A stretch of DNA of 64,000 nucleotides. Source: an uncultured Bifidobacteriaceae bacterium. Its GTDB lineage: Bacteria; Verrucomicrobiota; Verrucomicrobiia; Limisphaerales; UBA11358. The notes under the pieces were generated by a model that worked only from the letters and a program-made list of their open reading frames with translations, searched no databases and was not told the origin of the DNA. The stretch covers positions 8,817 to 72,816 of the forward strand of contig CAYVGC010000006.1 of the NCBI GenBank assembly GCA_964449815.1, given 5' to 3'. Position numbers and translations under genes: made by a program. This document shows, piece after piece, positions 1 through 17,470 of this stretch (position 1 is its first letter; each line of letters starts with the position of its first letter).

Positions 1-470
1 ATTGCATGGTGGCGAGTTAGATATTCCGTCAGGCGATTGTTGCTGCGCTGCCATAGCGGCTCGCCACCGACATCATTGTCAACCTCACGCAAACGGAGGT
101 CGAGTCCATTGGCACGTTTGGCCTGCTCCTTTGGGAACGAAGGCAGTCCCTTGTGGTGAGAATAGGCTGCTACCGCCGCTTCCGTGCATAGAGGAAACAG
201 ATGAGCCGATGCCGCATCCCAATGCAACAAGCCGTGATTGGTCTGACGGTTGTGGGCCAGCACATCCTGAAAAACATCGTCCAGTTTGCCAAGGTCGTGA
301 TAATGCGCGGCCATCTCCAGAACATCGAGAAACCCGTCACGCCATCTGGGACAGTGCGTTGTGGCTTCACGACCGAAGCGTATAGCCAGCGAGATGACAT
401 TACCAACATGGTAACGATACCACTGCTCAGGTGCGCCATTGCGGGCGCTATGGGCGAGCGGCTCGCTCAC
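1..470 (-). CDS. cas3: Cas3-type HD nuclease domain protein, N-terminal 156 codons only (partial, continues beyond window start)
   Basis: Manual minus-strand translation; this ORF is not in the supplied track. It reads VSEPLAHSARNGAPEQWYRYHVGNVISLAIRFG...LEMAAHYHDLGKLDDVFQDVL...NHGLLHWDAASAHL...AAYSHHKGLPSF, with no stop codon down to position 1. The LAHS / H-x-x-x-V / HDLGK / HH pattern is that of Cas3 HD domains. The GTG at 470-468 overlaps the cas7 TGA at 469-467. Confidence 0.7.
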   Translation of the reverse strand, partial: MSEPLAHSARNGAPEQWYRYHVGNVISLAIRFGREATTHCPRWRDGFLDVLEMAAHYHDLGKLDDVFQDVLAHNRQTNHGLLHWDAASAHLFPLCTEAAVAAYSHHKGLPSFPKEQAKRANGLDLRLREVDNDVGGEPLWQRSNNRLTEYLTRHHA

Positions 471-1459
471 AGCAATGCGTAGTCGGTATAAATGCCGACG
501 TCATTCCAAGTCAAAGACTTGTCGCCTTGTTTTCGCACGACGTTGCCTTTGATCTCATCCCAAGTCGGAATCTGGTAATCCGCGCGAGAAGTGCTTGGCT
601 TCTCTGGATCATCCCCTTTCCGGACAAGCTTGAGTGCATCCAGCAACGCGAAATCCGAAAACGAACCGAGCTGGTCTTTGTGCTCGACGGCATGGGCATG
701 GATTAACTCGACTTGGGTGCGGACTGTCGAAGGATTGTCGCGGTAAGCGTGTTTCAGCAAATTAAGCATCAGCCGCACATCGTCACCAGTGCAGCCGGTT
801 TTCCGAGCCTGCGTCGGGTTGACGAAGAATGGCACAGTGTAGATGCCGTGCTCGACAAACTTCATGGCCTGCGGAGCAAAACCGCGATCCTTATCTCCTT
901 CCACGCCTGGTTTGTTCGTCCAAGTCTCGAAGCGAACTCGGACGGGCGCAACAGAAACGCCAACTCCAAAGTGGGCAGCGCCGGCTCGAATAGCTCTGTC
1001 CATAATTTTCCTTCGATCCTCAACCGTAAGCTTCTTGCCGGTTTCCTTCTCCAGCTTCTTCACACCCTCGTCCACAGCTTCCTTTCCCTCCAAGAACGTG
1101 CTGCCGAACAACCGTGCATCCCAGTAATCCTGTTGAAAGCGCCCGTCTGCGAGCTTCTTGAAAATTTCTTCCCGATCACGGTCGCGCTTTTCGAGAATGT
1201 CGAACCGGGCGTCCTCACCCAATGAGAGTCGTTGCTTCATCTCCTGCCAGATCAGCCCCTCCTTGTCAGAGACCAATTCGCGCAATTTGCGTTTGACCGA
1301 AACGGGCGAAATCTCGCCGCGATCATCCGGGCGCTGGCGAGGAAAACCTGCGTTGTCTGGGTCGCCGTTGGGGTTTGAGTCACGGACCTCGATGACGAGG
1401 AGTCCGGTGATGCGGGGAATATTGGAGTCGAGCATGGTTTGTTTTTCTTTTGCGTTCAT
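467..1459 (-). CDS. cas7: CRISPR-associated Cas7, subtype I-C (Csd2 family)
   Basis: N-terminus GLLVIEVRDSNPNGDPDNAGFPRQRPDDRGEISPVSVKRKLRELV carries the Csd2/Cas7c NPNGDP signature. It sits directly downstream of the cas8c-like gene. Confidence 0.85.
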   Translation of the reverse strand: MNAKEKQTMLDSNIPRITGLLVIEVRDSNPNGDPDNAGFPRQRPDDRGEISPVSVKRKLRELVSDKEGLIWQEMKQRLSLGEDARFDILEKRDRDREEIFKKLADGRFQQDYWDARLFGSTFLEGKEAVDEGVKKLEKETGKKLTVEDRRKIMDRAIRAGAAHFGVGVSVAPVRVRFETWTNKPGVEGDKDRGFAPQAMKFVEHGIYTVPFFVNPTQARKTGCTGDDVRLMLNLLKHAYRDNPSTVRTQVELIHAHAVEHKDQLGSFSDFALLDALKLVRKGDDPEKPSTSRADYQIPTWDEIKGNVVRKQGDKSLTWNDVGIYTDYALL

Positions 1460-1464
1460 AATTT

Positions 1465-3708
1465 TTATTCGTTGTTGGTTTCAGAGGTTGCGGTTTCTTC
1501 GTCGCCGGACACGTCGGCAAGATAACCGAGCATGAGTTGAGCTTTGGAGATGTCGTCCAGATGTTCCACTTTGCCCAATTGCTCCAGATTTTTCGTAATA
1601 CTGGGTTCGCAATGGGACATCGCTTTGAGAATCCGGGTTGCCTCGCCAGCATCCTCGCCGCGATAGGTTGTAGCCCAGCCTTTGTAGGGCTGAATGCGCG
1701 TCGCCAACTGGCGGAGCGCACGCGCTGGATTATCCAGCGCGGTGTTGAAGACCGCATTGCCCAAGAGTTCCGTTGGCGCGCTGATCTTCCCTTTTTCGCG
1801 GTCTTTCTCCGACGTGCGAACCCATTTGCAGTAGTGAAAATGCAACTTGTCAGCGAGCGCCAGCAGTTGCCCGATTTGGTAGAGGGTGTCTTTCATAAAG
1901 GTTTCGTGGTGTTGATCCAACAGGTGAAGGAAAATGCCTGTGAGTGCGACCGCCTTGAGCACGTCGCGGCGAGCTTCTTTGCTCAAAGGCCGCAGTTTTT
2001 CGAGCCATTCGAGTTCTCTGTCTCGCCGCGTGACTTTGAAGATCGCCGCTCGCGCGAAAACGGGCCGCATCCGAACCAAGAGCGTGTTCAATCCGAACCG
2101 AGCTTTCCTGGTTTGGAGCGGTGGTCCAGCGAGGAAAATATCCAAAGCATCGTCCCGCGAGAGCGACACCACTAAGTAGGATGACAAACCTTCCTTGGCG
2201 TCTGTTTTCCACACTTGATTCAAGACGAGCGCCACGTCCATCGGTCCAGGCACAATGCGGAACTTCTCGATGCGTCGTTTATTCTCCGTGACCCGTGTCG
2301 TGAGTCTGACTGGCGGGCAATTCTTTGCTCCTGCCTGCCACGATTTGGCTGCGGCATTGAGTTCGTGAACGGTGAGGCTGCGGTTGAGTCGCAGTTGTTT
2401 GTTGGCTGCGTCCACCTCGCCGATAGCGAAAAGCCGGATCAAAGCGTCCGGGGTCTTGGCTTCACGAGCGTCGAGTGTTTCAAGGATCAGTCTTGTTTTC
2501 TCTCCGTAGTCTGCACCAATGAAGTCACGGGCCGTCTCACCGAACACATCCACGTAACGGTCATCTGCGAGCGGCTCATCTTCGAGATACGCAACGAGTA
2601 GCTGCTTTTTGTCGCCGGGCAGGAGACGGCAAGTTTTGCCAGAAGCCACTCGGCCACCCAAGGCGACCAATGCAGCGTCATCGCCGGCCAGAGTGAAGAT
2701 GGCGGCAGACAGGCGATGGACATTCTCCGGGGAGACAACGAAAGTGCGCGTGTCTCCCAGCCCGTAGCGGAAAAAGCACTTTGCTTCGGCGGTGTTGTTG
2801 GAAAACAACTTGGTGTTTCCAAGCACGGACAGTTTTGGTTCGGGAAACTTCGGAGGCAACGAGCACTCTTTCCCGGTGTAGGCATCGCGCACGAGAGTGG
2901 GCGGCTCGGGTGAAACGGCCTTCTTCTTACGCGTCGCCGGCGAAGTCTTGCCGCGAGTCTCCCTGTCGTATGCCGGCGGGTCGGTCTCCAGAAAAAACTT
3001 GTTCAACGCCCGACTGGTGCGCGAATCAGCAACCGGAAATGTGCCTAAATCCGCAACGGCGAGATCAAAATAAACAGGCAGTTTGCGGTCGGTAAAGAGC
3101 CATTCGGCGAACAAAACCGCATCGGCTGAGGTGATGTCTCCGTCTTGTTTTACGAGCAGGTTTACGAGTTGCTCGGTCAATGCTTGCGGTTCAAGTCGCG
3201 CAGCCGAGACAACCTCGACCAGCTTTTTGAACACAGCCAGTTCATCCCCTGCTTGCGCAAGATCCCCTTGAAGCCATCCGACCAATTCATGAAGGGATCG
3301 TTTTGCTTGCTGCTTCTGTTTGTCCAACAATTCAACCGGCTTGGAACGGGCAAATCGTTTTTTTGTGAAACGCTTGAGTGAAGCAACGTCTGGCAACTTG
3401 CGACGTAGCGTCTTGAATTGCTCAGTCAATTTCTTTTCCCACTTTTCGACCCCGGTAAATCGGAATCGCCGCAAGGGCGTAGGCAGATTGAAACCGGGGA
3501 ACGCCGCGCCTTCCGAACCGTGACACACACGCAAAAGACTCCCTGCGTCACGGATAACGGAGAGCCTCGTCGGCATCCCGTCCGCACTCAGTTGTATAAG
3601 CAGGACCTGATCGTTCTTGCCCATCGGATCGAGATGGGGATGCAGTTCGATTGGCCTTACACCGCACCGCTCCAGCGCAGTCGCCGCCAGATAAAGTTCA
3701 TTGAGCAT
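1465..3708 (-). CDS. cas8c: CRISPR-associated large subunit, Cas8c (Csd1)-like, 747 aa
   Basis: Lies between cas5c and cas7c. The central LFSNNTAEAKCFFRYGLGD...VSPENVHRLSAAIFTL and the C-terminal AQLMLGYLA resemble Csd1 features. I moved the start to the ATG at 3708 (MLNELYLAA), because the track ORF's N-terminal 105 codons overlap cas5. Confidence 0.65.
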   Translation of the reverse strand: MLNELYLAATALERCGVRPIELHPHLDPMGKNDQVLLIQLSADGMPTRLSVIRDAGSLLRVCHGSEGAAFPGFNLPTPLRRFRFTGVEKWEKKLTEQFKTLRRKLPDVASLKRFTKKRFARSKPVELLDKQKQQAKRSLHELVGWLQGDLAQAGDELAVFKKLVEVVSAARLEPQALTEQLVNLLVKQDGDITSADAVLFAEWLFTDRKLPVYFDLAVADLGTFPVADSRTSRALNKFFLETDPPAYDRETRGKTSPATRKKKAVSPEPPTLVRDAYTGKECSLPPKFPEPKLSVLGNTKLFSNNTAEAKCFFRYGLGDTRTFVVSPENVHRLSAAIFTLAGDDAALVALGGRVASGKTCRLLPGDKKQLLVAYLEDEPLADDRYVDVFGETARDFIGADYGEKTRLILETLDAREAKTPDALIRLFAIGEVDAANKQLRLNRSLTVHELNAAAKSWQAGAKNCPPVRLTTRVTENKRRIEKFRIVPGPMDVALVLNQVWKTDAKEGLSSYLVVSLSRDDALDIFLAGPPLQTRKARFGLNTLLVRMRPVFARAAIFKVTRRDRELEWLEKLRPLSKEARRDVLKAVALTGIFLHLLDQHHETFMKDTLYQIGQLLALADKLHFHYCKWVRTSEKDREKGKISAPTELLGNAVFNTALDNPARALRQLATRIQPYKGWATTYRGEDAGEATRILKAMSHCEPSITKNLEQLGKVEHLDDISKAQLMLGYLADVSGDEETATSETNNE

Positions 3709-4351
3709 GGTTGGCCCTCCCTTCTCGATATTCGAGGACACCGTTGCGAACTTGCTGCGGATAATATGTCTCACGACCGCGCTGGCCCTGTTGAGGCCGG
3801 TCGAACACTGTCCAAAGCATCGCGGGGATTTCGTGGTGTTCCGACTCGCACGGGCGCGTGCCGTCGCGAAACAAGCCAAAGTAATCCGGAACAAATTCCT
3901 TCCAGCCCAAGCAAGGCGTGTGAAACCAGCGGCCTCGTTCCAAACGCCGATTGAAGACGTCAGCGTAGGCATGCGGGGAGCAAGTGCCGTCAGGAGAATC
4001 CGCCGGCTCTCCATTCGGCCCACGATTCCAGTCTGCCTGCGCGTAAAGGCGATAGCGCACGTTTATCAGCACTTGAGCGAAGATTTGTTTTGCGGCGTTC
4101 TTCTTCATCGCACCGGTGTCGCGCAGCGGCCCGCCATAGTTGAAAGCATAAGAATGGAATTGCACAGGCGCGCAGATTTCACAGCGAGTCGGACACACGT
4201 TCACGGACTTCCAACGCACTACAGCCTCGAACAGTCCTTTGGCCGCGCTAAATGTTGGCGCTGCGTAGGAAACCGGGTTTGGCAGTGTGTCAGGTCGCGT
4301 CCAAAGCGCGGTCGGGCCGGAGATTTCGAGTTGAATGGGATATGGTTTCAT
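3698..4351 (-). CDS. cas5: CRISPR-associated Cas5, subtype I-C (Cas5d, pre-crRNA-processing type)
   Basis: LEISGPTALWTRPDT...PVSYAAPTFSAAKGLFEAVVRWKS and RRLERGRWFHTPCLGWKEFVPDYF match the Cas5d pattern (RR..G..f..P.LG.rEF). Confidence 0.8.
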   Translation of the reverse strand: MKPYPIQLEISGPTALWTRPDTLPNPVSYAAPTFSAAKGLFEAVVRWKSVNVCPTRCEICAPVQFHSYAFNYGGPLRDTGAMKKNAAKQIFAQVLINVRYRLYAQADWNRGPNGEPADSPDGTCSPHAYADVFNRRLERGRWFHTPCLGWKEFVPDYFGLFRDGTRPCESEHHEIPAMLWTVFDRPQQGQRGRETYYPQQVRNGVLEYREGRANHAQ

Positions 4352-4593
4352 AAATCATGCAGAAATCCGACCAGCTTGGCTTCATTGGCTATGTTAAATG
4401 GCGTGGTGAATTGCCCGGCAAGTTCGGCGACATTGGACAAATGCGTGGCCAGTGGCTGCCATTGGCCAGAAGATTCTGGTAGTGGTGTCCCATTTTCACC
4501 GACCGCAGTGTGCGCGTAGAATTTCACACGTTTCCCTTTAACCTGAAATTGAATGTGTCTTGGTAAATCGCCACCGTCCTGATGACAAGCCAA
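4348..4593 (-). pseudogene. Cas3 N-terminal stub, terminating inside the HD motif (probable deletion remnant)
   Basis: (R)VKFYAHTAVGENGTPLPESSGQWQPLATHLSNVAELAGQF...EAKLVGFLHDL-stop is a canonical Cas3 N-terminus up to the HD of HDxGK. The track start at 4593 is a TTG; a GTG at 4527 (VKFYAHT) is the more Cas3-like start. The stop TGA overlaps the cas5 ATG (TTATGA). Confidence 0.6.
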
Positions 4594-5473
4594 ATTTGTT
4601 ACAATTTTTCATATCTGCGAAAACCTTAACAAAGGGGGTAGGACAAATGCGGTCCAACCCTTAATCTATTTTCAGATTTTTTTGGCCGAAAATTTCACAG
4701 GCATTTTCCAAGTGGTTGACATCGCACGCCGGTTGAATGTGGCGGCAGACAACGGCCTTTCACCGCCGCTTCGCTTTGTTGAAATGCCGCTGACTGCCTT
4801 GCAGGTGATGGCCTGACTCCGTCTGGTTCAGATGGCTTCACTCCACTGCTCTCCGCGTGACCACGCGACCATTGCCCGCCTGATCACACTCCGTTTGGTT
4901 TCGTTCCGCCATCTGAATCCGGCGGAGACAGCCCGGGAGGGCGCGCGGCTTCGCCCGCCCAAACTCAAAGCAATAGGCCGCTAGGCTGCGCCACGGCCAA
5001 GACATCGGCATTAGCCGTGAGACCGGCCAGCTTTCGCTCATTCCGCTAATCTTCCGCTGCATTCCATTTCGCTCCAGAGCGCTACAATCACAAAACTGTC
5101 AGGCCTCACTGACCAAACCAATTTTAGTCTGACCACCGCCGGTTTGGTTTCCGCTGCGCTCCACCCAAACCAACGGGCGTCAGAGCCGGCAAGATTTGTG
5201 CCTTCGGCGACTCTGCGAGGCCAAGAGAGTTTTGGTTGGTGTTTTTGACATGGCACGTTTTGTTGATAAGCTGGGGCCGTCAGGGTCTCACCGTAAGCCG
5301 CTTGCTGCTCCGCCATCTTTTTCAAGTTTTTTAATTCCCGTTGTCACGGGGCGCTTTTTTCCCGGCGACGCACAGGGCATGGGCCACGCCAGCGCCCCGG
5401 CTATCGGGTAACGCCGAAACTTTCGCTGTCATGCCCCATGCACGCCGGAAAAAAACCGAGGTCAGTTCAAAAA

Positions 5474-5926
5474 ATGGCTCCGCGAGGGATGAAGCAAGCG
5501 GCATACGGCGAGACACGGACGGCGATCATCAAAAAAAAGCTTATGAAAAACAAAATATCAATTGAAGCAGCGGCTCCAGCAAACGCCAGCCAGCCATCAT
5601 CATTCAAGGCGGCTAAACAAACCGGTTTTGTCAGGCATTGCGCCAATCGCCGGTTGCCCACGGAAAAAGTCTTGAATTGCTTGCGAACGCAGTTGCCGAG
5701 TCAGTATGAATTGGCGGAGGTGGTCGGCAAATGGGTTTGGTTGGACGTTTCGCCCGCCCGCAAGCCCGGTCTGGCCAGTGTGCTTTGGACTTTGGGCTTC
5801 CATTGGAACCAGCGGCGCGGTGTCTGGCAGCATCCGTGCGGCAGGTTTGACCCGCTTGGCAGCCATCCCACCGACCCCCGCGCCAAGTATCGCTGCTATT
5901 TTCCCGCCGACATGCAGCCCGCGTGA
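5474..5926 (+). CDS. Hypothetical protein with Trp-rich C-terminal motif, possibly mobile-element associated
   Basis: C-terminal ELAEVVGKWVWLDVSPARKPGLASVLWTLGFHWNQRRGVWQHPCG looks protein-like and conserved, and recalls small plasmid/phage-borne domains (from memory, unverified). The start could be 5438 or 5474. Confidence 0.45.
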   Translation: MAPRGMKQAAYGETRTAIIKKKLMKNKISIEAAAPANASQPSSFKAAKQTGFVRHCANRRLPTEKVLNCLRTQLPSQYELAEVVGKWVWLDVSPARKPGLASVLWTLGFHWNQRRGVWQHPCGRFDPLGSHPTDPRAKYRCYFPADMQPA

Positions 5927-6109
5927 ACCAAAAACCGCCATGAACATTTCACCCATTATGGCACTGGCACTGTCAGTGAAACTGTCAGTCAGGGCTAACG
6001 CCGATAGCCGAAAATTCTGGCGGATTAACCCGAATAGTCTTTAATTTCCCCAACGATTTGCTAAATTCCATTTATCTGAATCAATGCAACAGACTGTGCC
6101 CATCTGTGG

Positions 6110-6763
6110 CTAAAACAGTTTTGGCTCCGGCTGCTTGATCGGCGCGAAGCTTCTCCGGTGGATTGGACATGCGCCGAATTGCGCAATTGCCGCCAGATGC
6201 TTCGCCGTGCCGTAGCCTTTGTGCCCGGCAAAACCGTATTCGGGAAACTGCGCGTGAAATTCCAGCATCAGCCGGTCGCGCGTGACCTTGGCCAGCACGC
6301 TCGCGGCGGCGATGGAATAGCTCCGCGCATCGCCCTTAACGATGGCCGTCTGCGGCACACGCAGGGTTTTCACGGGGCGGCCGTCCACGAGCGCGTGCGG
6401 CGGCAGCGGATTCAATTTTGCCAGCGCATCGTTCATCGCGCGATGCGTGGCCTGCAAAATATTGATCTCGTCAATCACCGCCGCGTCCACCTCGGCGATG
6501 CCGAATTCGATTTCGCCGCAGGTGGTGATGAAGGCGAAAAACCTTTCACGCTGCGCGGCGGTGAGCTGCTTGGAATCGTTCAAGCTGGTGAGTTCAGCGG
6601 GCAGACCCGTTTTCGCCCAGCGCGGCGGCAGGATGGCGGCGGCGGCAACGACCGGCCCGGCGAGCGGCCCGCGTCCGGCCTCGTCCACGCCCGCGACGCG
6701 CGCGACGCCCTGCTGCCAGAGGGCGCGCTCGAATTCAAAACTGATGGGGAATTTAACGGGCAT
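6110..6763 (-). CDS. rnhB: Ribonuclease HII
   Basis: VAGVDEAGRGPLAGPVVAAA and DSKQLT motifs; typical length. Confidence 0.9.
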   Translation of the reverse strand: MPVKFPISFEFERALWQQGVARVAGVDEAGRGPLAGPVVAAAAILPPRWAKTGLPAELTSLNDSKQLTAAQRERFFAFITTCGEIEFGIAEVDAAVIDEINILQATHRAMNDALAKLNPLPPHALVDGRPVKTLRVPQTAIVKGDARSYSIAAASVLAKVTRDRLMLEFHAQFPEYGFAGHKGYGTAKHLAAIAQFGACPIHRRSFAPIKQPEPKLF

Positions 6764-10320: not shown

Positions 10321-11316
10321 TTGAACATGAACAACAAATACCATCCCGCGCTGTTTTGGTTCGCCGTGCTCAACGTCGTTGCCACAACCTTGCTCATCGG
10401 TCTCGGCGGTCTCGTCACCAGCCACGAGGCCGGCATGTCCGTGCCAGACTGGCCGACCACCTATGGCTACAACATGTTCCTGTTTCCCGTGGACAAGTGG
10501 GTCGGCGGCATTTTCTACGAGCATTCGCACCGCCTGCTCGCCTCGCTGGTCGGCCTGCTGACCACGGTTCTGGCCGTCTGGCTCTGGCTCAAAGATCCGC
10601 GCAAATGGCTGCACTGGCTGGGCATCGCGGCCTTTTTGCTGGTCATCGCGCAGGGCGTTCTCGGCGGCCTCCGCGTCCGCTGGCAGATGGACTGGCTCGG
10701 CGTCCCGCACGGCGCGGTCGCGCAAACTTTTCTGGTGCTCACCTGCGCCATCGCCCTGTTCACCAGCCGCTGGTGGCAGAATTCGGAAACCGAAAAACAA
10801 ATTCCCGTTCCGCGCGGCCTGCGCCGCCATGTGCTTTACGTCACGCTTTTGATTTTTGTCCAGCTTGTCATTGCCGCGACGATGCGGCATCAGCACGCCG
10901 GCCTGGCCATCACGGATTTCCCGCTCGCCTACGGGAAAATCTGGCCGGCCACGACGCCGGAAGCCATCGCAAGCTACAACGCCCATCGTCCGCCCGGCAC
11001 CATCGGCAATCCCATCACGGCGTTGCAAGTGAACCTGCAAATGATCCACCGCCTCGTCGCCTACGCCATTCTTCTCGGCGTCGCGGCGGCGGCGATGCTC
11101 GCGCGGAAAAAACTCGGCGGCGGCGACTGGCTGACCAGATTCGCCTTTTTCTGGCTGGGGCTGCTCGCGCTGCAAATCATCCTCGGCGCGGCGACCATCT
11201 GGTCGAACAAGGCGGCGGACGTGGCGACCGGCCACGTCATGGCCGGCGCGCTGGCGCTGCTCGCCGGTTCGCTGTGGTGGCTCGTGGCCGCGCGGCGCAC
11301 GCGGCTGGCGGAATAA
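10321..11316 (+). CDS. ctaA: Heme A synthase (COX15/CtaA family)
   Basis: LGGLVTSHEAGMSVPDWPTTYGYNMFLFP...YEHSHRLLAS; polytopic membrane protein. Confidence 0.85.
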   Translation: MNMNNKYHPALFWFAVLNVVATTLLIGLGGLVTSHEAGMSVPDWPTTYGYNMFLFPVDKWVGGIFYEHSHRLLASLVGLLTTVLAVWLWLKDPRKWLHWLGIAAFLLVIAQGVLGGLRVRWQMDWLGVPHGAVAQTFLVLTCAIALFTSRWWQNSETEKQIPVPRGLRRHVLYVTLLIFVQLVIAATMRHQHAGLAITDFPLAYGKIWPATTPEAIASYNAHRPPGTIGNPITALQVNLQMIHRLVAYAILLGVAAAAMLARKKLGGGDWLTRFAFFWLGLLALQIILGAATIWSNKAADVATGHVMAGALALLAGSLWWLVAARRTRLAE

Positions 11317-11448
11317 AGGCTTTGCCGACGCAACCCAGGGAATATCCCGGCCAAAGTTTCCGGCAAACAGCATTGACAGATTTTGCCATCGCATGACAAA
11401 ATAGGGTGAATTAGGCGTGGTTCTAACCACAAAAATTTTACCAGAAGA

Positions 11449-12354
11449 ATGAAATTATCGGCGACGGCGGCATTAAATTCAACCGAGGATTTTGACAAAA
11501 GCTGGACGGCGGTCTTCGCGGACCTCGTCAAGGCGCGGCTCACCGCGCTCGTGCTGCTCACCACCTTCGTCGGGTTTTATCTCGGCGAAACTGGCAGCGT
11601 GAACTGCCTGCTGATGTTTCACGCGCTGTCCGGCACGGCGCTGGTCGCGGCCGGCGCGGCCGCGTTGAACCAACTGCTTGAACGCGATTACGACGCCAGG
11701 ATGCGCCGCACGGCCAGCCGCCCGCTGCCGTCGGGCCGTTTGCAGCCGGCGGCAGTTGCCATTTTCGGCGGTGTTTGTTCGGTCGCCGGTTTGATTTATC
11801 TCGCCGTGGCGGTCAACCCGCTCACCAGCGTCGTCGGCGCGGTGACTTCCATCAGCTATCTTTTCATTTACACGCCGCTGAAGCGCGTGACCTGGGCCAA
11901 CACGCTCGTCGGCGCGATTCCCGGCGCGCTGCCGCCGCTCATGGGCTGGACCGCCGCGCGCAACGAATTGAGCGGCGAAGGCTGGACGCTGTTTGCGCTG
12001 GTGGCGTTCTGGCAGATCCCGCATTTCATGGCCATTGCGTGGCTTTACCGCGAGGAATACGCCAAGGCCGGTTTCATCATGCTGCCCAACATTGACGCCG
12101 ACGGCAGCCGCACGGCGCAGCACGCCGTCGGCAACACGGTCGCGCTGTTCATCGTGAGCCTCTGCCCGTTTTTGCTGAAAATGAACGGTCAAATTTACCT
12201 CGCGACGGCGATGATCTTGGGTGCGGGATATTTTTGGTGCGCGGTGCGGTTTGCGCGGCAACTGACCCCGGCGCGCGCCCGGCAGCTTTTTCTGGCCTCG
12301 ATCATTTACCTGCCGCTGCTGCTGGCGGCGATGGTTTGCGACAAGGTGAAATGA
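11449..12354 (+). CDS. ctaB: Protoheme IX farnesyltransferase (heme O synthase)
   Basis: UbiA-family motifs (NQLLERDYDARMRRTASRPLPSG) and its position next to ctaA/ctaD. Confidence 0.88.
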   Translation: MKLSATAALNSTEDFDKSWTAVFADLVKARLTALVLLTTFVGFYLGETGSVNCLLMFHALSGTALVAAGAAALNQLLERDYDARMRRTASRPLPSGRLQPAAVAIFGGVCSVAGLIYLAVAVNPLTSVVGAVTSISYLFIYTPLKRVTWANTLVGAIPGALPPLMGWTAARNELSGEGWTLFALVAFWQIPHFMAIAWLYREEYAKAGFIMLPNIDADGSRTAQHAVGNTVALFIVSLCPFLLKMNGQIYLATAMILGAGYFWCAVRFARQLTPARARQLFLASIIYLPLLLAAMVCDKVK

Positions 12355-12358
12355 ATTT

Positions 12359-14233
12359 ATGGAAGCGACGGTTCAACAATTTCCGCCATATCGCGAATCC
12401 GAACTGCGGCATGGCCACGGCGAGCACGAGCACCACGAGCCGGGCTTCTGGAACAAATACATTTTCTCGACCGACCACAAGGTCATCGGCATCCAATACG
12501 GATTCACCGCGCTGTGCTTCATGCAGTTCGGATTTTTCCTGATGATGCTGATGCGCTGGCAGATTGCGCATCCGGGCGTGCCGGTGCCGCTCGTCGGGCC
12601 GCTGCTGGAAAAAATTCTCGGCACGCCGGCGGCGGGCGGCGCAATTTCACCCGACCTTTACAACTCCTTCGGCGCGATGCACGGGACGATCATGGTCTTC
12701 CTTGGCGTGGTGCCGCTGGCGTTCGCGGCGTTCGGCAACTACGTTGTGCCGCTGATGATCGGCGCGCCGGACATGTGTTTCCCGCGCATCAACATGGCAA
12801 GCTACCATGCGTTTTTCCTCGGCGGCGTGGTGATGCTGGTGAGCTTTTTCATCCCCGGCGGCGCGGCGCAGGCGGGCTGGACTTCGTATTCGCCGCTGGC
12901 TACCACCATTCCAACCAACGGCCAGGCGTTTTGGATCATCGGCATGGTGCTGCTCATCACCTCGTCCCTGCTCGGCGCGGTAAATTTCATCGCCACCATC
13001 ATCCAGCTTCGCGCGCCCGGCATGACGTGGATGCGCCTGCCGTTTTTCGTCTGGGCGCAGTTCGTGACCGCCTTCATTTTGCTGCTCGCGTTTCCGCCGT
13101 TGGAAGCCGCCGGCGTTTTGCAGTTGATGGACAACCTCGCACACACGAGTTTTTTCCTGCCAACCGGTCTTGCGGTGGGCGGCCAGCTTGCCGACCGGAG
13201 CGGCGGCGGCAGTCCGCTGCTGTGGCAGCACCTGTTCTGGTTCCTCGGCCACCCGGAAGTTTACGTCTTGATTCTGCCGGCGATGGGCATCGTCGGTGAA
13301 GTCATCGCCAACAACACGCGCAAGCCGCTGTGGGGCTACAAATCGCTCGTCTATTCGGTGCTGTTCGTCGGTTTCCTGTCGTTCATCGTCTGGGCGCACC
13401 ACATGTATCTGACCGGCATGGGCCAGAAAATCGCCACGTTTTTCCAGGCCACGACGATGATCATCTCGATCCCGTCCGTCATCATTTTGACGTGCATGTT
13501 CCTGTCGCTTTGGGGCGGCTCCATCCGCATCAACACGCCGATGCTGTTCGCTCTTGGCTTCCTGCCGATGTTCGGCATCGGCGGGTTGACGGGCCTGCCG
13601 CTGGGCCTGGCGGCGAGCGATTTGTATCTGCATGACACCTATTACATCATCGCGCATTTCCATTACGTCGTCGCGCCGGGAACTATCTTCGCGCTGTTCG
13701 CCGGCGTGTATTTCTGGTTCCCGAAAATGACCGGACGCAAATTGAATGAATTCTGGGGCCGCGTGCATTTCTGGTGTTCGCTCGTCTTCATGAACCTCGT
13801 GTTCATGCCCATGTTCGCGCAGGGCATCAAGGGCATGTTGCGCCGCATGAGCGACGGCGCGGTGAACTACTCCGCCGCGCGCGTGCCGAACGCCATTGAC
13901 GCGCTGCCCGGCACCGTGATGGAACTCAACCAGTGGATTCTCTGGGCGGCCATCGCGCTGGGCCTCGCGCAGATTCCGTTCATCATCAATTTATTTTGGA
14001 GCATCAGCCACGGCGAAAAAGTGAACAGCGACAATCCGTGGAGCGCGACCACGCTCGACTGGCAGACACCCACGCCGCCGCCGCACGGAAATTTCGCGCA
14101 CGAACCGCATGTCGTCCGCGGGCCTTACGAATACAGCGCGCCCGGCCACGCCACCGATTTCACGCCGCAAAACGAAGCTGAAGAAAACCGGAAAGCGGAA
14201 AGCGGAAAGCGGAAAGAAGAACCGGCATGCTAA
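12359..14233 (+). CDS. ctaD: Cytochrome c oxidase subunit I
   Basis: Canonical heme-copper oxidase subunit I sequence (WFLGHPEVYVLILP, HFHYV). The Lys/Glu-rich C-terminal tail is encoded by the heptamer repeats. Confidence 0.95.
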   Translation: MEATVQQFPPYRESELRHGHGEHEHHEPGFWNKYIFSTDHKVIGIQYGFTALCFMQFGFFLMMLMRWQIAHPGVPVPLVGPLLEKILGTPAAGGAISPDLYNSFGAMHGTIMVFLGVVPLAFAAFGNYVVPLMIGAPDMCFPRINMASYHAFFLGGVVMLVSFFIPGGAAQAGWTSYSPLATTIPTNGQAFWIIGMVLLITSSLLGAVNFIATIIQLRAPGMTWMRLPFFVWAQFVTAFILLLAFPPLEAAGVLQLMDNLAHTSFFLPTGLAVGGQLADRSGGGSPLLWQHLFWFLGHPEVYVLILPAMGIVGEVIANNTRKPLWGYKSLVYSVLFVGFLSFIVWAHHMYLTGMGQKIATFFQATTMIISIPSVIILTCMFLSLWGGSIRINTPMLFALGFLPMFGIGGLTGLPLGLAASDLYLHDTYYIIAHFHYVVAPGTIFALFAGVYFWFPKMTGRKLNEFWGRVHFWCSLVFMNLVFMPMFAQGIKGMLRRMSDGAVNYSAARVPNAIDALPGTVMELNQWILWAAIALGLAQIPFIINLFWSISHGEKVNSDNPWSATTLDWQTPTPPPHGNFAHEPHVVRGPYEYSAPGHATDFTPQNEAEENRKAESGKRKEEPAC

Positions 14234-14331
14234 AATTACCTATGGCAAAACTCGAAAATCCTTTTTCAAAAAATTTGCAAACGACGGCGGGCTTGACAGC
14301 GGAATTTCCGTTTTCCGTTTTCCACTTTCCG
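14189..14331 (+). repeat. Inverted heptamer arrays: 4x CGGAAAG (14189-14216) versus 4x CTTTCCG-like units (14304-14331)
   Basis: Read directly. The left arm is a perfect 4x tandem CGGAAAG inside the ctaD 3' end. The right arm is ATTTCCG TTTTCCG TTTTCCA CTTTCCG, ending 10 nt before the ctaE ATG at 14342. Confidence 0.8.
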
Positions 14332-14341
14332 CTTTTGTAAC

Positions 14342-15145
14342 ATGGATATTCCCTACACCGTTGAACACCGGCCGGACACCGGCATTTACAACGCCAAGCT
14401 CGGCATCTGGCTGTTCCTGGCGTCCGAAGTGATGCTGTTCGGCGGGCTTTTTTCCGCCTACATTCTGCTGCGCGTCGGCGCGGACCAGGGCATGTGGCCG
14501 CACGGCTGGCTCGATGTCCGGCTCGGCACCGTCAACACGCTGCTGCTCGCGCTCTCGGCCATCACCACGCTGCTCGCGTGGGCGGCGTGCAAGGTGCGCG
14601 ACTTCGGCAAATTCAAATTTTTCCACGCCTGCACCATTTTGCTGGCGCTGACATTCCTCGGCATCAAATCCTACGAATATCACGACAAATGGATTCATTA
14701 TGAAATCCAGTTGACCAGCGGAAATTTTGCCGATGGACATCTCGTTGAGAAATCGAAGAACTTTGACCTCGCCAAAAAAACCGGCACCGTCACGCTGCAC
14801 GGCCGCATGGTTGAAGACCGCCGGGAACTGATGGATTTGCGCACGCCGTCAGCACAGGCGGCGAAGCTCGATGAAATCACCATCGCCGCGGCTGACATCA
14901 GGAAAATGGAAAACTACGGCCCGAAGCACAACACGTTCACCGCGATTTATTTCACGCTCACCGGCCTGCATGCGCTGCACATTCTCGGCGGCACGCTCGT
15001 CATTTTTTACTTGTGGGCCTTTGGCAAAACCATGTGGCGGCGTGATCCCGAACGCTTCACCAACCGCATCGAAGTCTCCGGCTTGTTCTGGCACTTCGTG
15101 GACTTGGTCTGGATTTTTCTGTTTCCTGTGCTTTATTTGACCTGA
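14342..15145 (+). CDS. ctaE: Cytochrome c oxidase subunit III
   Basis: FTAIYFTLTGLHALHILGG and FWHFVDLVWIFLF motifs. Confidence 0.9.
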   Translation: MDIPYTVEHRPDTGIYNAKLGIWLFLASEVMLFGGLFSAYILLRVGADQGMWPHGWLDVRLGTVNTLLLALSAITTLLAWAACKVRDFGKFKFFHACTILLALTFLGIKSYEYHDKWIHYEIQLTSGNFADGHLVEKSKNFDLAKKTGTVTLHGRMVEDRRELMDLRTPSAQAAKLDEITIAAADIRKMENYGPKHNTFTAIYFTLTGLHALHILGGTLVIFYLWAFGKTMWRRDPERFTNRIEVSGLFWHFVDLVWIFLFPVLYLT

Positions 15146-15477
15146 TGATTAACATGAGCGAATCCGAACAGCCTGTCAGCCTGAAGAGCTGCATCCGCCT
15201 TTGCGCGGTCGTTTTTCTCGTCGTTGTCTGCACCACCTCCGCGATGATCGCCACGTCGTTCTCGCACCTTGGCGAGGGCTGGACGTTGAAAGTCGCGCTC
15301 ATCCTCGCCATCGCCGTGGTGAACGCATTCCTTGTCGCCGGCCATCTGATGCACCTGCTTTCCGAGAAAAAGCTCGTCTATGCCGTGCTCGCCTTCACCG
15401 TGTTTTTTTTCATCGGCCTGATGGGACTGACCGTCTGGGCCACGAACGGTTTTCCGCCCGGCACGGTTTTCCACTGA
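15145..15477 (+). CDS. Cytochrome c oxidase subunit IV (prokaryotic COX4 family)
   Basis: 110 aa, three TM helices, NAFLVAGHLMHL motif; the start overlaps the ctaE stop. Confidence 0.7.
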   Translation: MINMSESEQPVSLKSCIRLCAVVFLVVVCTTSAMIATSFSHLGEGWTLKVALILAIAVVNAFLVAGHLMHLLSEKKLVYAVLAFTVFFFIGLMGLTVWATNGFPPGTVFH

Positions 15478-15483
15478 ATTAAA

Positions 15484-15669
15484 ATGTCGCTCAAAGCCTT
15501 TCATCTCATTTTTGTGACGCTGCTGGCCGCGCTGTCGTTCGGCTGCGCGGCATGGGCGTTTCAAACCGGCAGCGTGCCTGGCGGCGCGATGGGAATCACC
15601 GCCGGCATTTTTGTGATCGTGTATGGGGTTTATTTTTTGAAGAAACTGAAAAACGTCAGCTACCTGTGA
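15484..15669 (+). CDS. Small hypothetical membrane protein (2 TM)
   Basis: 61 aa, hydrophobic, embedded in the cox operon. Confidence 0.4.
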   Translation: MSLKAFHLIFVTLLAALSFGCAAWAFQTGSVPGGAMGITAGIFVIVYGVYFLKKLKNVSYL

Positions 15670-15926
15670 AATTCCTCCGCACAATTTTATTGCCCGCGTT
15701 TGCCGCGTTTGCGCCGGCGAAAGTTTCCGCCTGCGCCGCCTGCTACGGCGGCAACGTGGATTCGCCGATGACCGACGGCATGAACTGGGCCATCCTCACC
15801 TTGGGCGTCACCGTCGCCACGGTGCTGGGCGCGTTCCTGACCTTTTTGATTTACGCCATCCGCAAGAGCGCGGCGCTCACCGCCGCCGCCGAACAAAAAA
15901 ATCCTCCTGAAGCCTCAAACGCATGA
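15666..15926 (+). CDS. Small hypothetical membrane-anchored protein (signal peptide plus CAAC motif plus C-terminal TM)
   Basis: The GTG at 15666 overlaps the upstream stop (GTGA). Sequence VKFLRTILLPAFAAFAPAKVSACAACYGG...ILTLGVTVATVLGAFLTFLIY. The end overlaps the ctaC start. Confidence 0.4.
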   Translation: MKFLRTILLPAFAAFAPAKVSACAACYGGNVDSPMTDGMNWAILTLGVTVATVLGAFLTFLIYAIRKSAALTAAAEQKNPPEASNA

Positions 15927-16696
15927 AAAACTGGTTTGCCCATAACGTCCTCGGCCTGCCCGAACTCGCCTCGTCCAACGGCCAGGCTGTGGATGACCTC
16001 ATGGTTTATGTCCACTGGCTGATGCTGGTGCTGTTCGTCGGCTGGATCATTTATTTCGGCTATGTGCTGTTCCGTTTCAACTCGGTGCGCCACACAAAGG
16101 CCAGCTACGAAGGCTCCAAGAGCAGGATTCCCAGCTATGTCGAACTGGCCATTGTCGGCATCGAAGCCGTGCTGCTGCTCGGCATCGCCGTGCCGCTCTG
16201 GGCGAAAAACGTGCAGCAATTTCCCAAGCCTGAGGACGCCACCGTCATCCAGATCATGGCGCAACAGTTCGCTTGGAACGCCCGCTATCCCGGCCTCGAC
16301 GGAAAATTCGGCCGGCAGGACATGAAGCTCATTGCCAGCGACAACGTCTTTGGCGTGGACCCCGCCGATCCCGCCGGCAAGGACGACGTGCAGGTGCTCA
16401 ATGAAATCCACGTCCCCGTCAACAAACCCGTGCTGATTTATTTAAGCTCCAAGGACGTGATCCATTCGCTGAAACTCGTCGCCATGCGCATCACGCAGGA
16501 CGCCATTCCCGGCCTGCGGATTCCCTGCACCTTCACGCCCACGAAGATCGGCCGCTACCAGATTGAATGCGCGCAGCTCTGCGGCAACGGCCACGCCGCG
16601 ATGGCCGGCGGCTTCCTCGTCGTGCAAAGCCCGGCCGACTTCGCCGCGTGGCTGAAATCCAAATCTGCTTCCGCCGCGCCCGCCAGTTTTGAATGA
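15923..16696 (+). CDS. ctaC: Cytochrome c oxidase subunit II (CuA cupredoxin domain, no fused cytochrome c)
   Basis: Two N-terminal TM helices and the CuA motif HSLKL...CAQLCGNGHAAM. Confidence 0.88.
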   Translation: MKNWFAHNVLGLPELASSNGQAVDDLMVYVHWLMLVLFVGWIIYFGYVLFRFNSVRHTKASYEGSKSRIPSYVELAIVGIEAVLLLGIAVPLWAKNVQQFPKPEDATVIQIMAQQFAWNARYPGLDGKFGRQDMKLIASDNVFGVDPADPAGKDDVQVLNEIHVPVNKPVLIYLSSKDVIHSLKLVAMRITQDAIPGLRIPCTFTPTKIGRYQIECAQLCGNGHAAMAGGFLVVQSPADFAAWLKSKSASAAPASFE

Positions 16697-16804
16697 GCGG
16701 CGATGGAAATCGGTTCAAGCCCGACGCTTCCGGGGCAAGCGGATTTCCAATGCCTTTCGAGGACGGGCAGGATTGCCTGACAGCGGCTTCCGGCCAGGCG
16801 TTGA

Positions 16805-17290
16805 TTAATCCCTGAAATTTACAAACTGCACTGCCGCGGGAAATTCCCTGGCGCGCATGGCGGCGATGACGGCCTGCAATTCGTCGCGGCTCTTGCTGTT
16901 CACGCGCACCTCGTCCCCCTGGATCTGCGTCGTCACCTTGAACTTGCCGTCGCGGATGAAGCCGGTGATCTGCTTGGCCACGGCGCTCTCGATGCCCTGC
17001 TTGATCTTGATGCTCTGCCGCGCGTGGCCGAGCGGCGAAACGTCCGGGGCGCATTGTTCCACGCTCTTGAGGCTGATGCCACGCTTGGCAAGCCGGCCGA
17101 TGACAATTTCATTAAGCGTGGTGACTTTGAACTGGTCTTCGGCGGTGAGCTTGATTTCGGTTTTCTCCAGCACGATTTCCCATTTGCTTGCTTTGAAGTC
17201 AAAGCGGTTGGCCAGTTCTTTTTTGGCCTGGTTGACGGCGTTTTCGATTTCCATCGAGTTGACCTGCGAAACTATGTCGAATGAAGGCAT
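16805..17290 (-). CDS. yajQ: YajQ-family nucleotide-binding protein
   Basis: MPSFDIVSQVNSMEIENAVNQAKKELANRFDFK is the canonical YajQ N-terminus; 161 aa. Confidence 0.88.
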   Translation of the reverse strand: MPSFDIVSQVNSMEIENAVNQAKKELANRFDFKASKWEIVLEKTEIKLTAEDQFKVTTLNEIVIGRLAKRGISLKSVEQCAPDVSPLGHARQSIKIKQGIESAVAKQITGFIRDGKFKVTTQIQGDEVRVNSKSRDELQAVIAAMRAREFPAAVQFVNFRD

Positions 17291-17470
17291 GGCGGGAGTT
17301 TGGAAAATTCCCGGAAAAAGAAAAGACCGAATCGCGCGCCATCAGCCGGGCCGGGTGTCGCGGCTAATCCGGTCGCGCGGCCCGACCTGCCTTTCGCTGC
17401 CGGGTCCGATCCGGTGGTTCTGAAAACCTTCGCTGGCAAAACCTCCGGCAAGCGCCTACCCTCCCAGTTC

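What the first reader, a model, noticed from the sequence alone, without database searches (positions are those of the whole stretch)
1..4593. Non-canonical type I-C-like CRISPR-Cas operon: cas3 stub / cas5 / cas8c / cas7 / second HD (cas3-like) gene, with no adaptation genes or array in view
Seen: five minus-strand ORFs are packed with operon-style junctions. The stub (4593 or 4527 to 4348) joins cas5 (4351-3698) through an ATGA overlap. cas5 overlaps cas8c-like (3708-1465) by 11 nt. A 5-nt gap separates cas8c from cas7 (1459-467). cas7 joins an HD-domain ORF (470 to beyond 1) through a GTGA overlap. Established: canonical subtype I-C is cas3-cas5c-cas8c-cas7c-cas4-cas1-cas2 plus an array, with Cas5c acting as the pre-crRNA RNase. 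Here the upstream cas3 is reduced to its first ~60-80 codons, and the position normally held by cas4 is taken by a different Cas3-type HD gene. Inference: this is one of three things. It could be a I-C Cascade that lost its own nuclease-helicase and is co-transcribed with a foreign cas3. It could be two tandem type I modules. Or it could be a rearranged I-C variant with the effector nuclease at the 3' end and no adaptation module. The region also looks lower in GC than the housekeeping genes to its right, which fits horizontal acquisition.
Basis: partly seen in the sequence, partly recalled or inferred. Interest (0 to 1): 0.8.

Follow-up and report, generated by a model that had tools for sequence, protein, structure and literature searches.

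The report
Complete type I-C CRISPR-Cas, cas3-last order
The window cuts through an ordinary, complete type I-C CRISPR-Cas immune locus from a lineage whose normal gene order puts cas3 after cas7, and the upstream "cas3 stub" is a leftover from an older canonical I-C effector cassette that this one replaced.

Summary
The five minus-strand ORFs and their junctions are exactly as described. Metagenome contigs that are 100% identical to the window over 11.5 kb extend it to the left. The HD ORF is a full 761-aa Cas3. It is followed by a ParE toxin-antitoxin pair, cas4, a DUF6429 gene, cas1 (Cas1c), cas2 and a 15-repeat array with a I-C-type repeat. So the locus is complete and the "no adaptation module" reading is wrong. 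The order cas5-cas8c-cas7-cas3-cas4-cas1-cas2 holds in essentially all of about 60 related loci from many phyla, so cas3 is cognate, not foreign. The large subunit matches a Cas8c profile (E 4e-105) and the D. vulgaris Cas8c fold. The stub is a real Cas3 N-terminus. Its full-length relatives head canonical I-C loci. One such locus shares near-identical repeats and 69-89% identical Cas4/Cas1/Cas2 with this one, but only 22-28% identical effector proteins. The stub is therefore best read as a scar of effector-cassette replacement. Related stubs range from intact to eroded to absent. dN/dS is below 1, but that is confounded by possible recombination. This is a new member of a known kind, of modest interest.

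The parts
1..470 (-). 5' 156 codons of cas3 (HD domain). The gene continues left of the window to a 761-aa HD+helicase Cas3.
   Evidence: cas3_HD 1e-7. The full gene in the identical contig L002 10990-13275 hits cas3_HD 5.7e-13, cas3_core 6e-23 and PADLOC Cas3c 5e-99. HD motifs, Walker A and DEAH box are intact.
467..1459 (-). cas7 (Csd2-like backbone subunit), 330 aa
   Evidence: Pfam Cas_Cas7 2.1e-39. TIGR02589 Csd2 scores 98.5 bits, below the cut-off of 182. PADLOC Cas7b/Cas7c 9e-40 / 3e-30.
1465..3708 (-). cas8c large subunit, 747 aa, divergent. The C-terminal ~140 aa from the invariant Met605 (ATG at 1896) is a candidate internally translated Cas11c.
   Evidence: No Pfam or NCBIfam hit. 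PADLOC Cas8c PDLC01562 4.4e-105 over the whole profile. 7 of 27 homologues hit Pfam Cas_Csd1. AF2 model pLDDT 86. Top Foldseek PDB hits are D. vulgaris I-C Cas8c, prob 1.00, and the C-terminus matches Cas11c chains. M605 is invariant.
3698..4351 (-). cas5c (Cas5d-type), 217 aa. Presumed pre-crRNA endonuclease, since no cas6 is in the locus.
   Evidence: Pfam Cas_Cas5d 5.7e-9. TIGR01876 scores 43.8 bits, below the cut-off of 85. PADLOC Cas5c 1.1e-24. PDB Cas5c chains 3vzi, 8g9t and 7kha at 1e-13 to 5e-9.
4348..4527 (-). cas3 5' stub. The conserved 59-codon core runs from GTG 4527 to TGA 4348; the longest ORF starts at TTG 4593. It ends LHDL*, and its stop overlaps the cas5 ATG. It is a relic of a canonical I-C cas3.
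   Evidence: PADLOC Cas3c N-terminus 4e-8. 31 short homologues were found. The profile search also finds full-length ~750-aa Cas3 proteins, and these head canonical I-C loci. The breakpoint lies inside the Leu codon of HDLGK.
4528..4664 (-). Conserved 'head' upstream of the stub. Probably the promoter/leader of the cas operon, with two short inverted repeats.
   Evidence: 83.5% nt identity to the region upstream of the degraded stub in canonical locus L081. It is conserved in L018, L079 and L026. No sigma-70 consensus hit on the minus strand, so promoter function is inferred.

Best explanation

The full locus, read on the minus strand, is: head/promoter, cas3 stub, cas5c, cas8c (with an embedded candidate cas11c), cas7, cas3, [61-aa ORF + ParE toxin], cas4, [DUF6429], cas1c, cas2, and a 15-repeat CRISPR array.

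It belongs to a deep, widespread I-C lineage in which cas3 normally follows cas7.

Inferred mechanism, from established I-C biology:
- Cas5c cuts the pre-crRNA at the base of the repeat hairpin, leaving the 11-nt ...GGAUUGAAAC handle.
- Cas5, Cas8c, Cas7 and Cas11c assemble on the crRNA into Cascade.
- Cascade recruits the HD-helicase Cas3 to degrade target DNA.
- Cas1, Cas2 and Cas4 acquire spacers.

The stub is not a working nuclease. It is the first 59 codons of a canonical-type I-C cas3. It was left behind when the 'cas3-last' effector cassette replaced the canonical effector genes inside a I-C locus. The old promoter head, the adaptation genes and the repeat type were kept. The stub probably still supplies the operon's translation start region, because its stop overlaps the cas5 start. 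The peptide itself is most likely dispensable.
For: Shown:
- The window is 100% identical over 11,459 bp to contigs L001-L003, which carry the rest of the locus.
- Cas1 passes the Cas1c cut-off (408 vs 385 bits). Cas4, Cas2 and a full Cas3 are present.
- The array has 15 identical 37-nt repeats, GTCGCCCCGGTCAATTGGCCGGGGCGCGGATTGAAAC, with 34-36-nt spacers and a 10-bp hairpin plus unpaired tail.
- The order cas5-cas8-cas7-cas3-cas4-cas1-cas2 holds in essentially all informative loci among 69 relatives.
- Cas8c profile and fold matches.
- Full-length relatives of the stub (P0152, P0172, P0189) head canonical cas3-cas5-cas8c-cas7-cas4-cas1-cas2 loci.
- The first 173-181 nt of the L081 cas3 are 88% identical to the stubs of L026 and L012.
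- L081 shares Cas4/Cas1/Cas2 at 69/75/89% and the same repeat apart from the loop with the window locus. Its Cas3/Cas5/Cas7 are only 28/28/22% identical, and Cas8 is not alignable.
- Identity along the locus is mosaic between relatives.
- Stubs form a series from intact, through frameshifted or shortened, to absent, with at least four different 3' junctions.
- L081 itself has a decayed copy of the window-type stub.
- L011 and L012 carry an extra cas5 fragment after the stub.

Inferred: the promoter role of the head, translational coupling, and the enzymatic activities.
Against: - Cas5 and Cas7 score below the NCBIfam I-C cut-offs. Cas8 has no Pfam, NCBIfam or PDB sequence hit. The effector module is therefore very divergent from characterised I-C systems.
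- No protospacer was found for three spacers in viral contigs. Activity and PAM are untested.
- Stub pN/pS is 0.18-0.47 in close pairs (dN/dS 0.11-0.51 across all pairs), with saturated synonymous sites. Five or more loci share the identical junction CATGATTT|ATGAA. A purely neutral relic of single origin would not look like that. The relic reading needs repeated origin, or recombination with functional cas3 genes.
- No promoter consensus was found upstream.
Confidence: 0.8

Rival explanations
1. The stub is a functional small gene, not a neutral scar. It could be a leader ORF kept open to deliver ribosomes to cas5 through the ATGA overlap. Or it could be a 59-aa Cas3-N-terminus-derived peptide that acts on Cascade or Cas3.
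For: - Intact 59-codon ORFs with a conserved start position and the identical junction occur in L002, L018, L079, L026 and L020, although pS reaches ~0.7.
- pN/pS is 0.18-0.47, significantly below neutral in several pairs.
- Many database stubs end exactly at HDL* while being only 50-60% identical.
- There is an RBS-like AAGGGA before GTG 4527.
Against: - About half of the related Verrucomicrobiota-type loci have no stub, and many have frameshifted or shortened ones.
- There are several different junction types.
- A canonical locus carries a decayed copy.
- Close full-length cas3 relatives exist (88% nt). The low dN/dS can therefore be inherited from, or refreshed by, functional genes.
- The fragment lacks HD motifs III-V, so it cannot be a nuclease.
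Confidence: 0.18
2. One reading: a I-C Cascade that lost its own Cas3 and now depends on a foreign (I-B- or I-G-like) cas3 co-transcribed downstream.
For: - The best NCBIfam hit of the full Cas3 is the I-G model, though partial and far below the cut-off.
- The upstream cas3 is indeed destroyed.
Against: - The best PADLOC hit is Cas3c, 5e-99.
- The same Cas3 lineage directly follows cas7, usually with a 4-nt overlap, in about 60 loci from many phyla, most with no stub at all.
- The stub belongs to a different, canonical I-C lineage that is only 28% identical in Cas3. It is therefore the intruded-upon gene, not this Cascade's former partner.
Confidence: 0.03
3. One reading: two tandem type I modules, or an adaptation-less, array-less derived system such as a transposon- or regulator-type Cascade.
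For: Nothing beyond the truncated view that the window gives.
Against: - The extension shows a single Cascade gene set, one intact cas3, cas4-cas1-cas2 and an array with perfectly conserved repeats.
- No Tn7-type genes were called in the 20-kb locus.
Confidence: 0.01

Closest known systems
Canonical subtype I-C (Dvulg) CRISPR-Cas, e.g. Desulfovibrio vulgaris, Bacillus halodurans, Neisseria lactamica
   Same: - Cas8c fold and profile, Cas5c without Cas6, and Csd2-type Cas7.
- A fused HD-helicase Cas3, a stand-alone Cas4, Cas1c and Cas2.
- A repeat of the GTCGC...hairpin...ATTGAAAC type.
   Different: - The gene order is cas5-cas8c-cas7-cas3, not cas3-cas5-cas8c-cas7.
- Effector proteins are only 22-28% identical to a neighbouring canonical I-C locus and fall below the NCBIfam I-C cut-offs.
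- Cas8c is longer, 747 aa against 584-612.
- The repeat is 37 nt, with a longer stem.
- A toxin-antitoxin pair and a DUF6429 gene are inserted in the operon.
Subtype I-B (cas6-cas8b-cas7-cas5-cas3-cas4-cas1-cas2)
   Same: - cas3 follows the Cascade genes and precedes cas4-cas1-cas2.
- Cas7 also hits I-B/I-C shared Cas7 profiles.
- The fourth Foldseek hit is a I-B Cas8.
   Different: - No cas6.
- cas5 comes first and is of the Cas5c type.
- The large subunit matches Cas8c, not Cas8b.
- Cas1 is Cas1c (408 bits) and only 154 bits to Cas1b.
Shuffling of effector and adaptation modules in CRISPR-Cas evolution. This is a general principle from the Makarova/Koonin classifications, cited from my own knowledge. 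Module shuffling is mentioned for type III in PMC12669027.
   Same: An effector cassette has been exchanged while the adaptation genes, repeat and locus head were kept.
   Different: The exchange here is between two deeply divergent lineages of the same subtype. It has left a physical scar, a cas3 5' stub, and in L011/L012 also a cas5 fragment. The scar marks the breakpoint to within one codon.

Membership tests
CRISPR-Cas subtype I-C | Cas8c (Csd1) large subunit, the subtype signature | tested here: met
   PADLOC Cas8c profile PDLC01562 4.4e-105, covering 1-656 of 658. The top three Foldseek PDB hits are D. vulgaris Cas8c, prob 1.00. 7 of 27 homologues hit Pfam Cas_Csd1. The protein itself has no Pfam, NCBIfam or PDB sequence hit.
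CRISPR-Cas subtype I-C | Cas5c-type Cas5 and no Cas6 in the locus | tested here: met
   Cas5c/Cas5d profiles 1e-24 to 3e-11. Solved Cas5c chains 1e-13. No Cas6 family appears among the genes called in the 20-kb locus. Catalytic residues and RNase activity were not tested.
CRISPR-Cas subtype I-C | Csd2-type Cas7 | tested here: inconclusive
   Pfam Cas_Cas7 2e-39. The best NCBIfam hit is Csd2, but at 98.5 bits against a cut-off of 182. The best PADLOC hit is a shared I-B/I-C Cas7 model.
CRISPR-Cas subtype I-C | Single-chain Cas3 with an N-terminal HD nuclease and an SF2 helicase | tested here: met
   761 aa with HD 20-193, helicase core 263-581 and the Cas3 C-terminal domain. PADLOC Cas3c 5e-99. 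Motifs are intact.
CRISPR-Cas subtype I-C | Cas11c made from an internal start within cas8c | tested here: inconclusive
   Met605 is invariant in 27 homologues. The C-terminal region matches Cas11c chains 8dex_J (prob 0.99) and 7kha_K. There is no clear RBS upstream. Translation was not tested.
CRISPR-Cas subtype I-C | Adaptation module of Cas4, Cas1c and Cas2 | tested here: met
   Cas1c TIGR03640 scores 408.4 bits, above the cut-off of 385. Cas4 TIGR00372 scores 122 bits and PADLOC Cas4c 1e-65. Cas2 scores 68.8 bits.
CRISPR-Cas subtype I-C | I-C-type repeat: GTCGC..., GC-rich hairpin, 3' ...ATTGAAAC handle | tested here: met
   15 identical 37-nt repeats with a 10-bp stem at -22.6 kcal/mol. 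The same repeat family occurs in canonical I-C loci L080 and L081.
CRISPR-Cas subtype I-C | Typical operon order cas3-cas5-cas8c-cas7-cas4-cas1-cas2. This is typical of the subtype, not a formal criterion. | tested here: not met
   cas3 lies between cas7 and cas4, here and in about 60 related loci.
CRISPR-Cas subtype I-C | DNA interference with a 5'-TTC-type PAM | tested here: inconclusive
   Three spacers gave no exact match in viral contigs.
CRISPR-Cas subtype I-B | Cas8b large subunit and Cas6 endonuclease | tested here: not met
   No Cas6. The large subunit matches Cas8c; Cas8b appears only as a weak fourth fold hit.
CRISPR-associated transposon or adaptation-less derived type I system | Loss of cas3 and/or cas1-cas2-cas4, and linkage to Tn7-like genes | tested here: not met
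   An intact cas3, cas4, cas1, cas2 and an array are present. No transposition genes were called.

The most novel reading that the evidence does not exclude
The cas3 5' stub may be more than debris. In one reading it is a conserved 'landing pad'. Together with the shared adaptation genes and repeat, it would let two very different I-C effector cassettes (canonical, and cas3-last) replace one another by homologous recombination. In the other reading it is an exapted 59-aa Cas3-N-terminus peptide or leader ORF that controls Cascade expression or Cas3 recruitment. Either reading would explain the identical junction and the dN/dS below 1 across highly diverged stubs.
Probability: 0.15. Interest if true: 0.55.

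Novelty: new member of a known kind. Interest (0 to 1): 0.3.

Why it matters
The locus itself is a standard adaptive-immunity system and needs no new biology. Two points have some value.

First, a large and phylogenetically broad I-C lineage has cas3 last and effector proteins so divergent that curated Pfam and NCBIfam I-C models miss Cas8c and under-score Cas5 and Cas7. Annotation pipelines may therefore under-call it.

Second, the stub gives an unusually precise physical record of effector-module replacement. Two cassettes at about 25% protein identity serve the same repeat and the same adaptation genes. That implies the two Cascades are compatible with the same crRNA, and it suggests frequent turnover of interference modules, perhaps under anti-CRISPR pressure.

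Tried and rejected
- Pfam, NCBIfam and a PDB profile search with the Cas8 protein or its alignment found nothing. Assignment needed the PADLOC Cas8c profile and a fold search.
- A tblastn search of Cas8 against plasmids gave no match.
- The promoter scan found no minus-strand sigma-70 site upstream of the stub.
- Three spacers gave no exact hit in viral contigs, so there is no PAM.
- No repeat-like element and no Rfam family was found in window 1-6500.
- Literature searches found no description of the cas3-last I-C order or of cas3 stubs. This is absence in the searched library only.
- I considered that the stub plus the downstream cas3 might be one gene split by an inserted Cascade cassette. 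I rejected this because the downstream Cas3 has its own complete HD domain, including HDLGK.
- I considered programmed frameshifting that would fuse the stub to Cas5. I rejected it because there is no slippery site and the junctions vary.
- I first read the dN/dS below 1 as proof of selection on the peptide. I downgraded this after finding close full-length cas3 relatives and several junction types.
Full report
**Observation.** The ORF list and direct translation confirm every coordinate and junction in the finding.
- The stub runs from 4593 or 4527 to 4348 and ends FLHDL*.
- cas5 is at 4351-3698 and shares an ATGA overlap with the stub.
- A 747-aa ORF at 3708-1465 overlaps cas5 by 11 nt.
- A 5-nt gap follows.
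- cas7 is at 1459-467.
- An HD ORF starts at GTG 470 with a GTGA overlap and leaves the window.

Family searches give Cas5c/Cas5d, Cas7 (Csd2 is the best NCBIfam hit, but below its cut-off) and cas3_HD for the last ORF. They give a weak Cas3 N-terminus signal for the stub and nothing for the large ORF in Pfam or NCBIfam. The PADLOC library gives a full-length Cas8c match (4.4e-105), and Cas3c N-terminus hits for the stub (4e-8). The window holds no array and no repeat-like sequence. GC is 0.551 in 1-4593 and 0.595 to the right of rnhB.

**Extension to the left.**
- An exact-sequence look-up of Cas7 found 17 metagenome contigs. L001-L003 (about 123 kb each) are 100% identical to the window over the whole 11,459-bp overlap.
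- In L002 coordinates (window = 11460 - L002), the HD ORF is a complete 761-aa Cas3 at 10990-13275. It has HD, helicase core and Cas3 C-terminal domains and intact motifs.
- After it come a 61-aa ORF and a ParE/RelE toxin (13329-13807), cas4 (13809-14417) and a DUF6429 ORF (14421-14660).
- Next are cas1 (14665-15774; Cas1c at 408 bits, cut-off 385) and cas2 (15783-16073).
- The array lies at 16261-17300. It has 15 identical 37-nt repeats, GTCGCCCCGGTCAATTGGCCGGGGCGCGGATTGAAAC, and 34-36-nt spacers.
- The repeat folds into a 10-bp hairpin followed by an unpaired ...GGAUUGAAAC tail, the I-C pattern.

The locus is therefore complete. The apparent lack of adaptation genes is an edge effect of the window.

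**Is cas3-after-cas7 local or general?**
- Cas8 has 111 homologues, mostly from Verrucomicrobiota metagenome bins.
- A scan of one genome per species with an alignment of 27 homologues returned 69 loci.
- I annotated these with the window-locus proteins. Essentially every informative locus has cas5-cas8-cas7-cas3-cas4-cas1-cas2.
- The loci come from Verrucomicrobiota, Latescibacterota, Planctomycetota, Acidobacteriota, Bacillota, Omnitrophota, Spirochaetota, Desulfobacterota and Syntrophorhabdus aromaticivorans UI.

The order is thus the norm of a deep lineage, and this Cas3 is the cognate nuclease.

An AlphaFold model of Cas8 (pLDDT 86) has the D. vulgaris I-C Cas8c as its three best PDB matches (prob 1.00). 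Its C-terminus matches Cas11c chains. Met605 is invariant and may be the internal Cas11c start, but no RBS is evident.

**What the stub is.**
- The conserved unit is 59 codons, from GTG 4527 to the TGA that overlaps the cas5 ATG.
- A word-indexed search found only short proteins of 55-131 aa.
- An exhaustive profile search found 1485 hits. Most of the top 150 are short, but several are full-length Cas3 proteins of about 750 aa.
- Three of those, P0152, P0172 and P0189, all head canonical cas3-cas5-cas8c(Csd1)-cas7-cas4-cas1-cas2 loci.
- The first 173-181 nt of the L081 cas3 are 88% identical to the stubs of L026 and L012.

Against the window locus, L081 shows two very different levels of similarity.

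| Component | Similarity, window locus vs L081 |
|---|---|
| Cas4 / Cas1 / Cas2 | 69 / 75 / 89% aa identity |
| CRISPR repeat | same, apart from the loop |
| Cas3 / Cas5 / Cas7 | 28 / 28 / 22% aa identity |
| Cas8 | not alignable |

Comparing junctions places the breakpoint inside the Leu codon of HDLGK. Intact cas3 reads CATGAT TTGGGGAAA. The window reads CATGATTT|ATGAAACC, which is the cas5 start.

The simplest reading is that the cas3-last effector cassette replaced the canonical effector genes of a I-C locus. The locus head, the first 59 codons of cas3, the adaptation genes and the repeat type stayed.

**Further signs of cassette turnover.**
- The window locus is 87-91% identical in nucleotides to L012 from cas5 to cas3, but only 67-74% in the adaptation genes.
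- Against L018 it is about 76% identical in the head-stub-cas5 stretch (the 177-nt stub core alone is 90%) and again from cas3 to the array, while cas8 and cas7 barely align.
- L024 and L015 match only the 3' two-thirds of cas3.
- L011 and L012 carry a partial cas5 of the other type between the stub and the current cas5.
- L081 has a decayed copy of the window-type stub with the same conserved head, followed by an antitoxin/Fic pair and then its intact cas3.
- The head (window 4528-4664) is conserved across variant and canonical loci and contains two short inverted repeats.

**Is the stub functional?**

*Against function:*
- Of the 36 closer loci (L011-L046), 30 had a placeable cas5; 17 of those show no stub. 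The others form an erosion series.
- Complete 59-codon matches are in L018, L020, L026 and L012, with L032 and L025 near-complete. A seventh, L079, could only be judged on cas5.
- Frameshifted, shortened or displaced copies are in L011, L013, L021, L022, L028, L030, L034 and L039.
- At least four 3' junction types exist.

*For function:*
- Five loci share the identical junction while synonymous sites are near saturation.
- pN/pS is 0.18-0.47, significantly below neutrality in several pairs.

Full-length functional cas3 genes lie within 12% nucleotide distance of some stubs, and the same junction types recur on different stub backgrounds. Repeated truncation, or recombination within the 177-nt homology, can therefore produce the same signal. 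A three-taxon decomposition gives omega of about 0.2-0.4 on the stub branches and about 0.16 on the functional branch, from very few substitutions (derived).

I therefore favour a scar that may still serve as the translation-initiation region of the operon. I leave roughly one chance in five that the ORF or peptide is itself selected.

**Comparison and verdict.** The system meets the tested I-C criteria. These are Cas8c, Cas5c without Cas6, a fused Cas3, the Cas4/Cas1c/Cas2 adaptation module and the repeat type. It differs in gene order and in strong divergence of the effector module. It is not I-B (no Cas6, no Cas8b), not a CAST and not adaptation-less.

Searches of the held literature found no description of this order or of cas3 stubs. 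However, an existing Cas8c profile already captures the family. I therefore rate it a new member of a known kind.

Interference activity, PAM, transcription and translation of the stub remain untested. Three spacer searches found no protospacer.

Noticed in passing
L002 13329-13807 and 14421-14660 (left of the window; identical contig): A 61-aa ORF plus a ParE/RelE toxin sits between cas3 and cas4. A DUF6429 ORF sits between cas4 and cas1. Both recur in L018, and the 61-aa ORF also in L024, L026 and L036. So a toxin-antitoxin pair and a small unknown gene are embedded in the cas operon.
   Followed up: partly
L011 8793-10011 and L012 8793-10011: Between the stub and the full cas5 there is a second, partial cas5 of the other Cascade type. 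This looks like a nested scar from a further cassette replacement.
   Followed up: partly
L081 8623-9652: A canonical I-C locus carries a degraded copy of the window-type stub with the same conserved head. Next comes a 70-aa ORF plus a Fic-domain gene, and only then its intact cas3. The Fic module is 66% nt similar to the slot between cas3 and cas4 in L026.
   Followed up: partly
window 4985-6115; L004 5275-6439: Contig L004 has the same CRISPR-Cas island, but homology to the window stops at about 6115, the stop codon of rnhB. Different genes follow (sugar nucleotidyltransferase, epimerase, methyltransferase). A 37-nt stretch (window 4985-5021) is matched twice. The island therefore occurs in two genomic contexts.
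   Followed up: partly
window 5438-5926 (+): A 162-aa ORF with no family hit lies between the cas operon head and rnhB. It travels with the island in L004.
   Followed up: no
L001/L002 16406-16547 versus L005: Spacer 3 (AATAAAATCAATGGTTTTTGAACGTAAAAATAAA) is duplicated in tandem in L001 and L002 but single in L005. The array is polymorphic between samples.
   Followed up: no
window 4528-4664 (-): The conserved head contains GGAC-N8-GTCC and GAACAA-N8-TTGTCA inverted repeats. They are shared by variant and canonical loci and are possible regulator binding sites.
   Followed up: partly
window 1465-1896 (-): Met605 of Cas8c is invariant in 27 homologues, and the downstream ~140 aa match Cas11c structures. 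This is a candidate internal start for a small subunit.
   Followed up: partly
L037 4095-8952: A messy region lies upstream of a cas3-last locus. It holds cas5 fragments, a canonical-type Cas5 N-terminus fused to a variant Cas5, a 429-aa ORF with no family assignment here, a cas3 with an internal deletion whose N-terminus matches the stub, and an unannotated 139-aa ORF on the opposite strand.
   Followed up: partly
L070 8917-9264, L051 9101-9214, L067 8406-8531: Distant members of the cas3-last lineage (Cas8 about 25% identical) also have truncated cas3 HD fragments just upstream of cas5. The same kind of scar may therefore have arisen independently.
   Followed up: no
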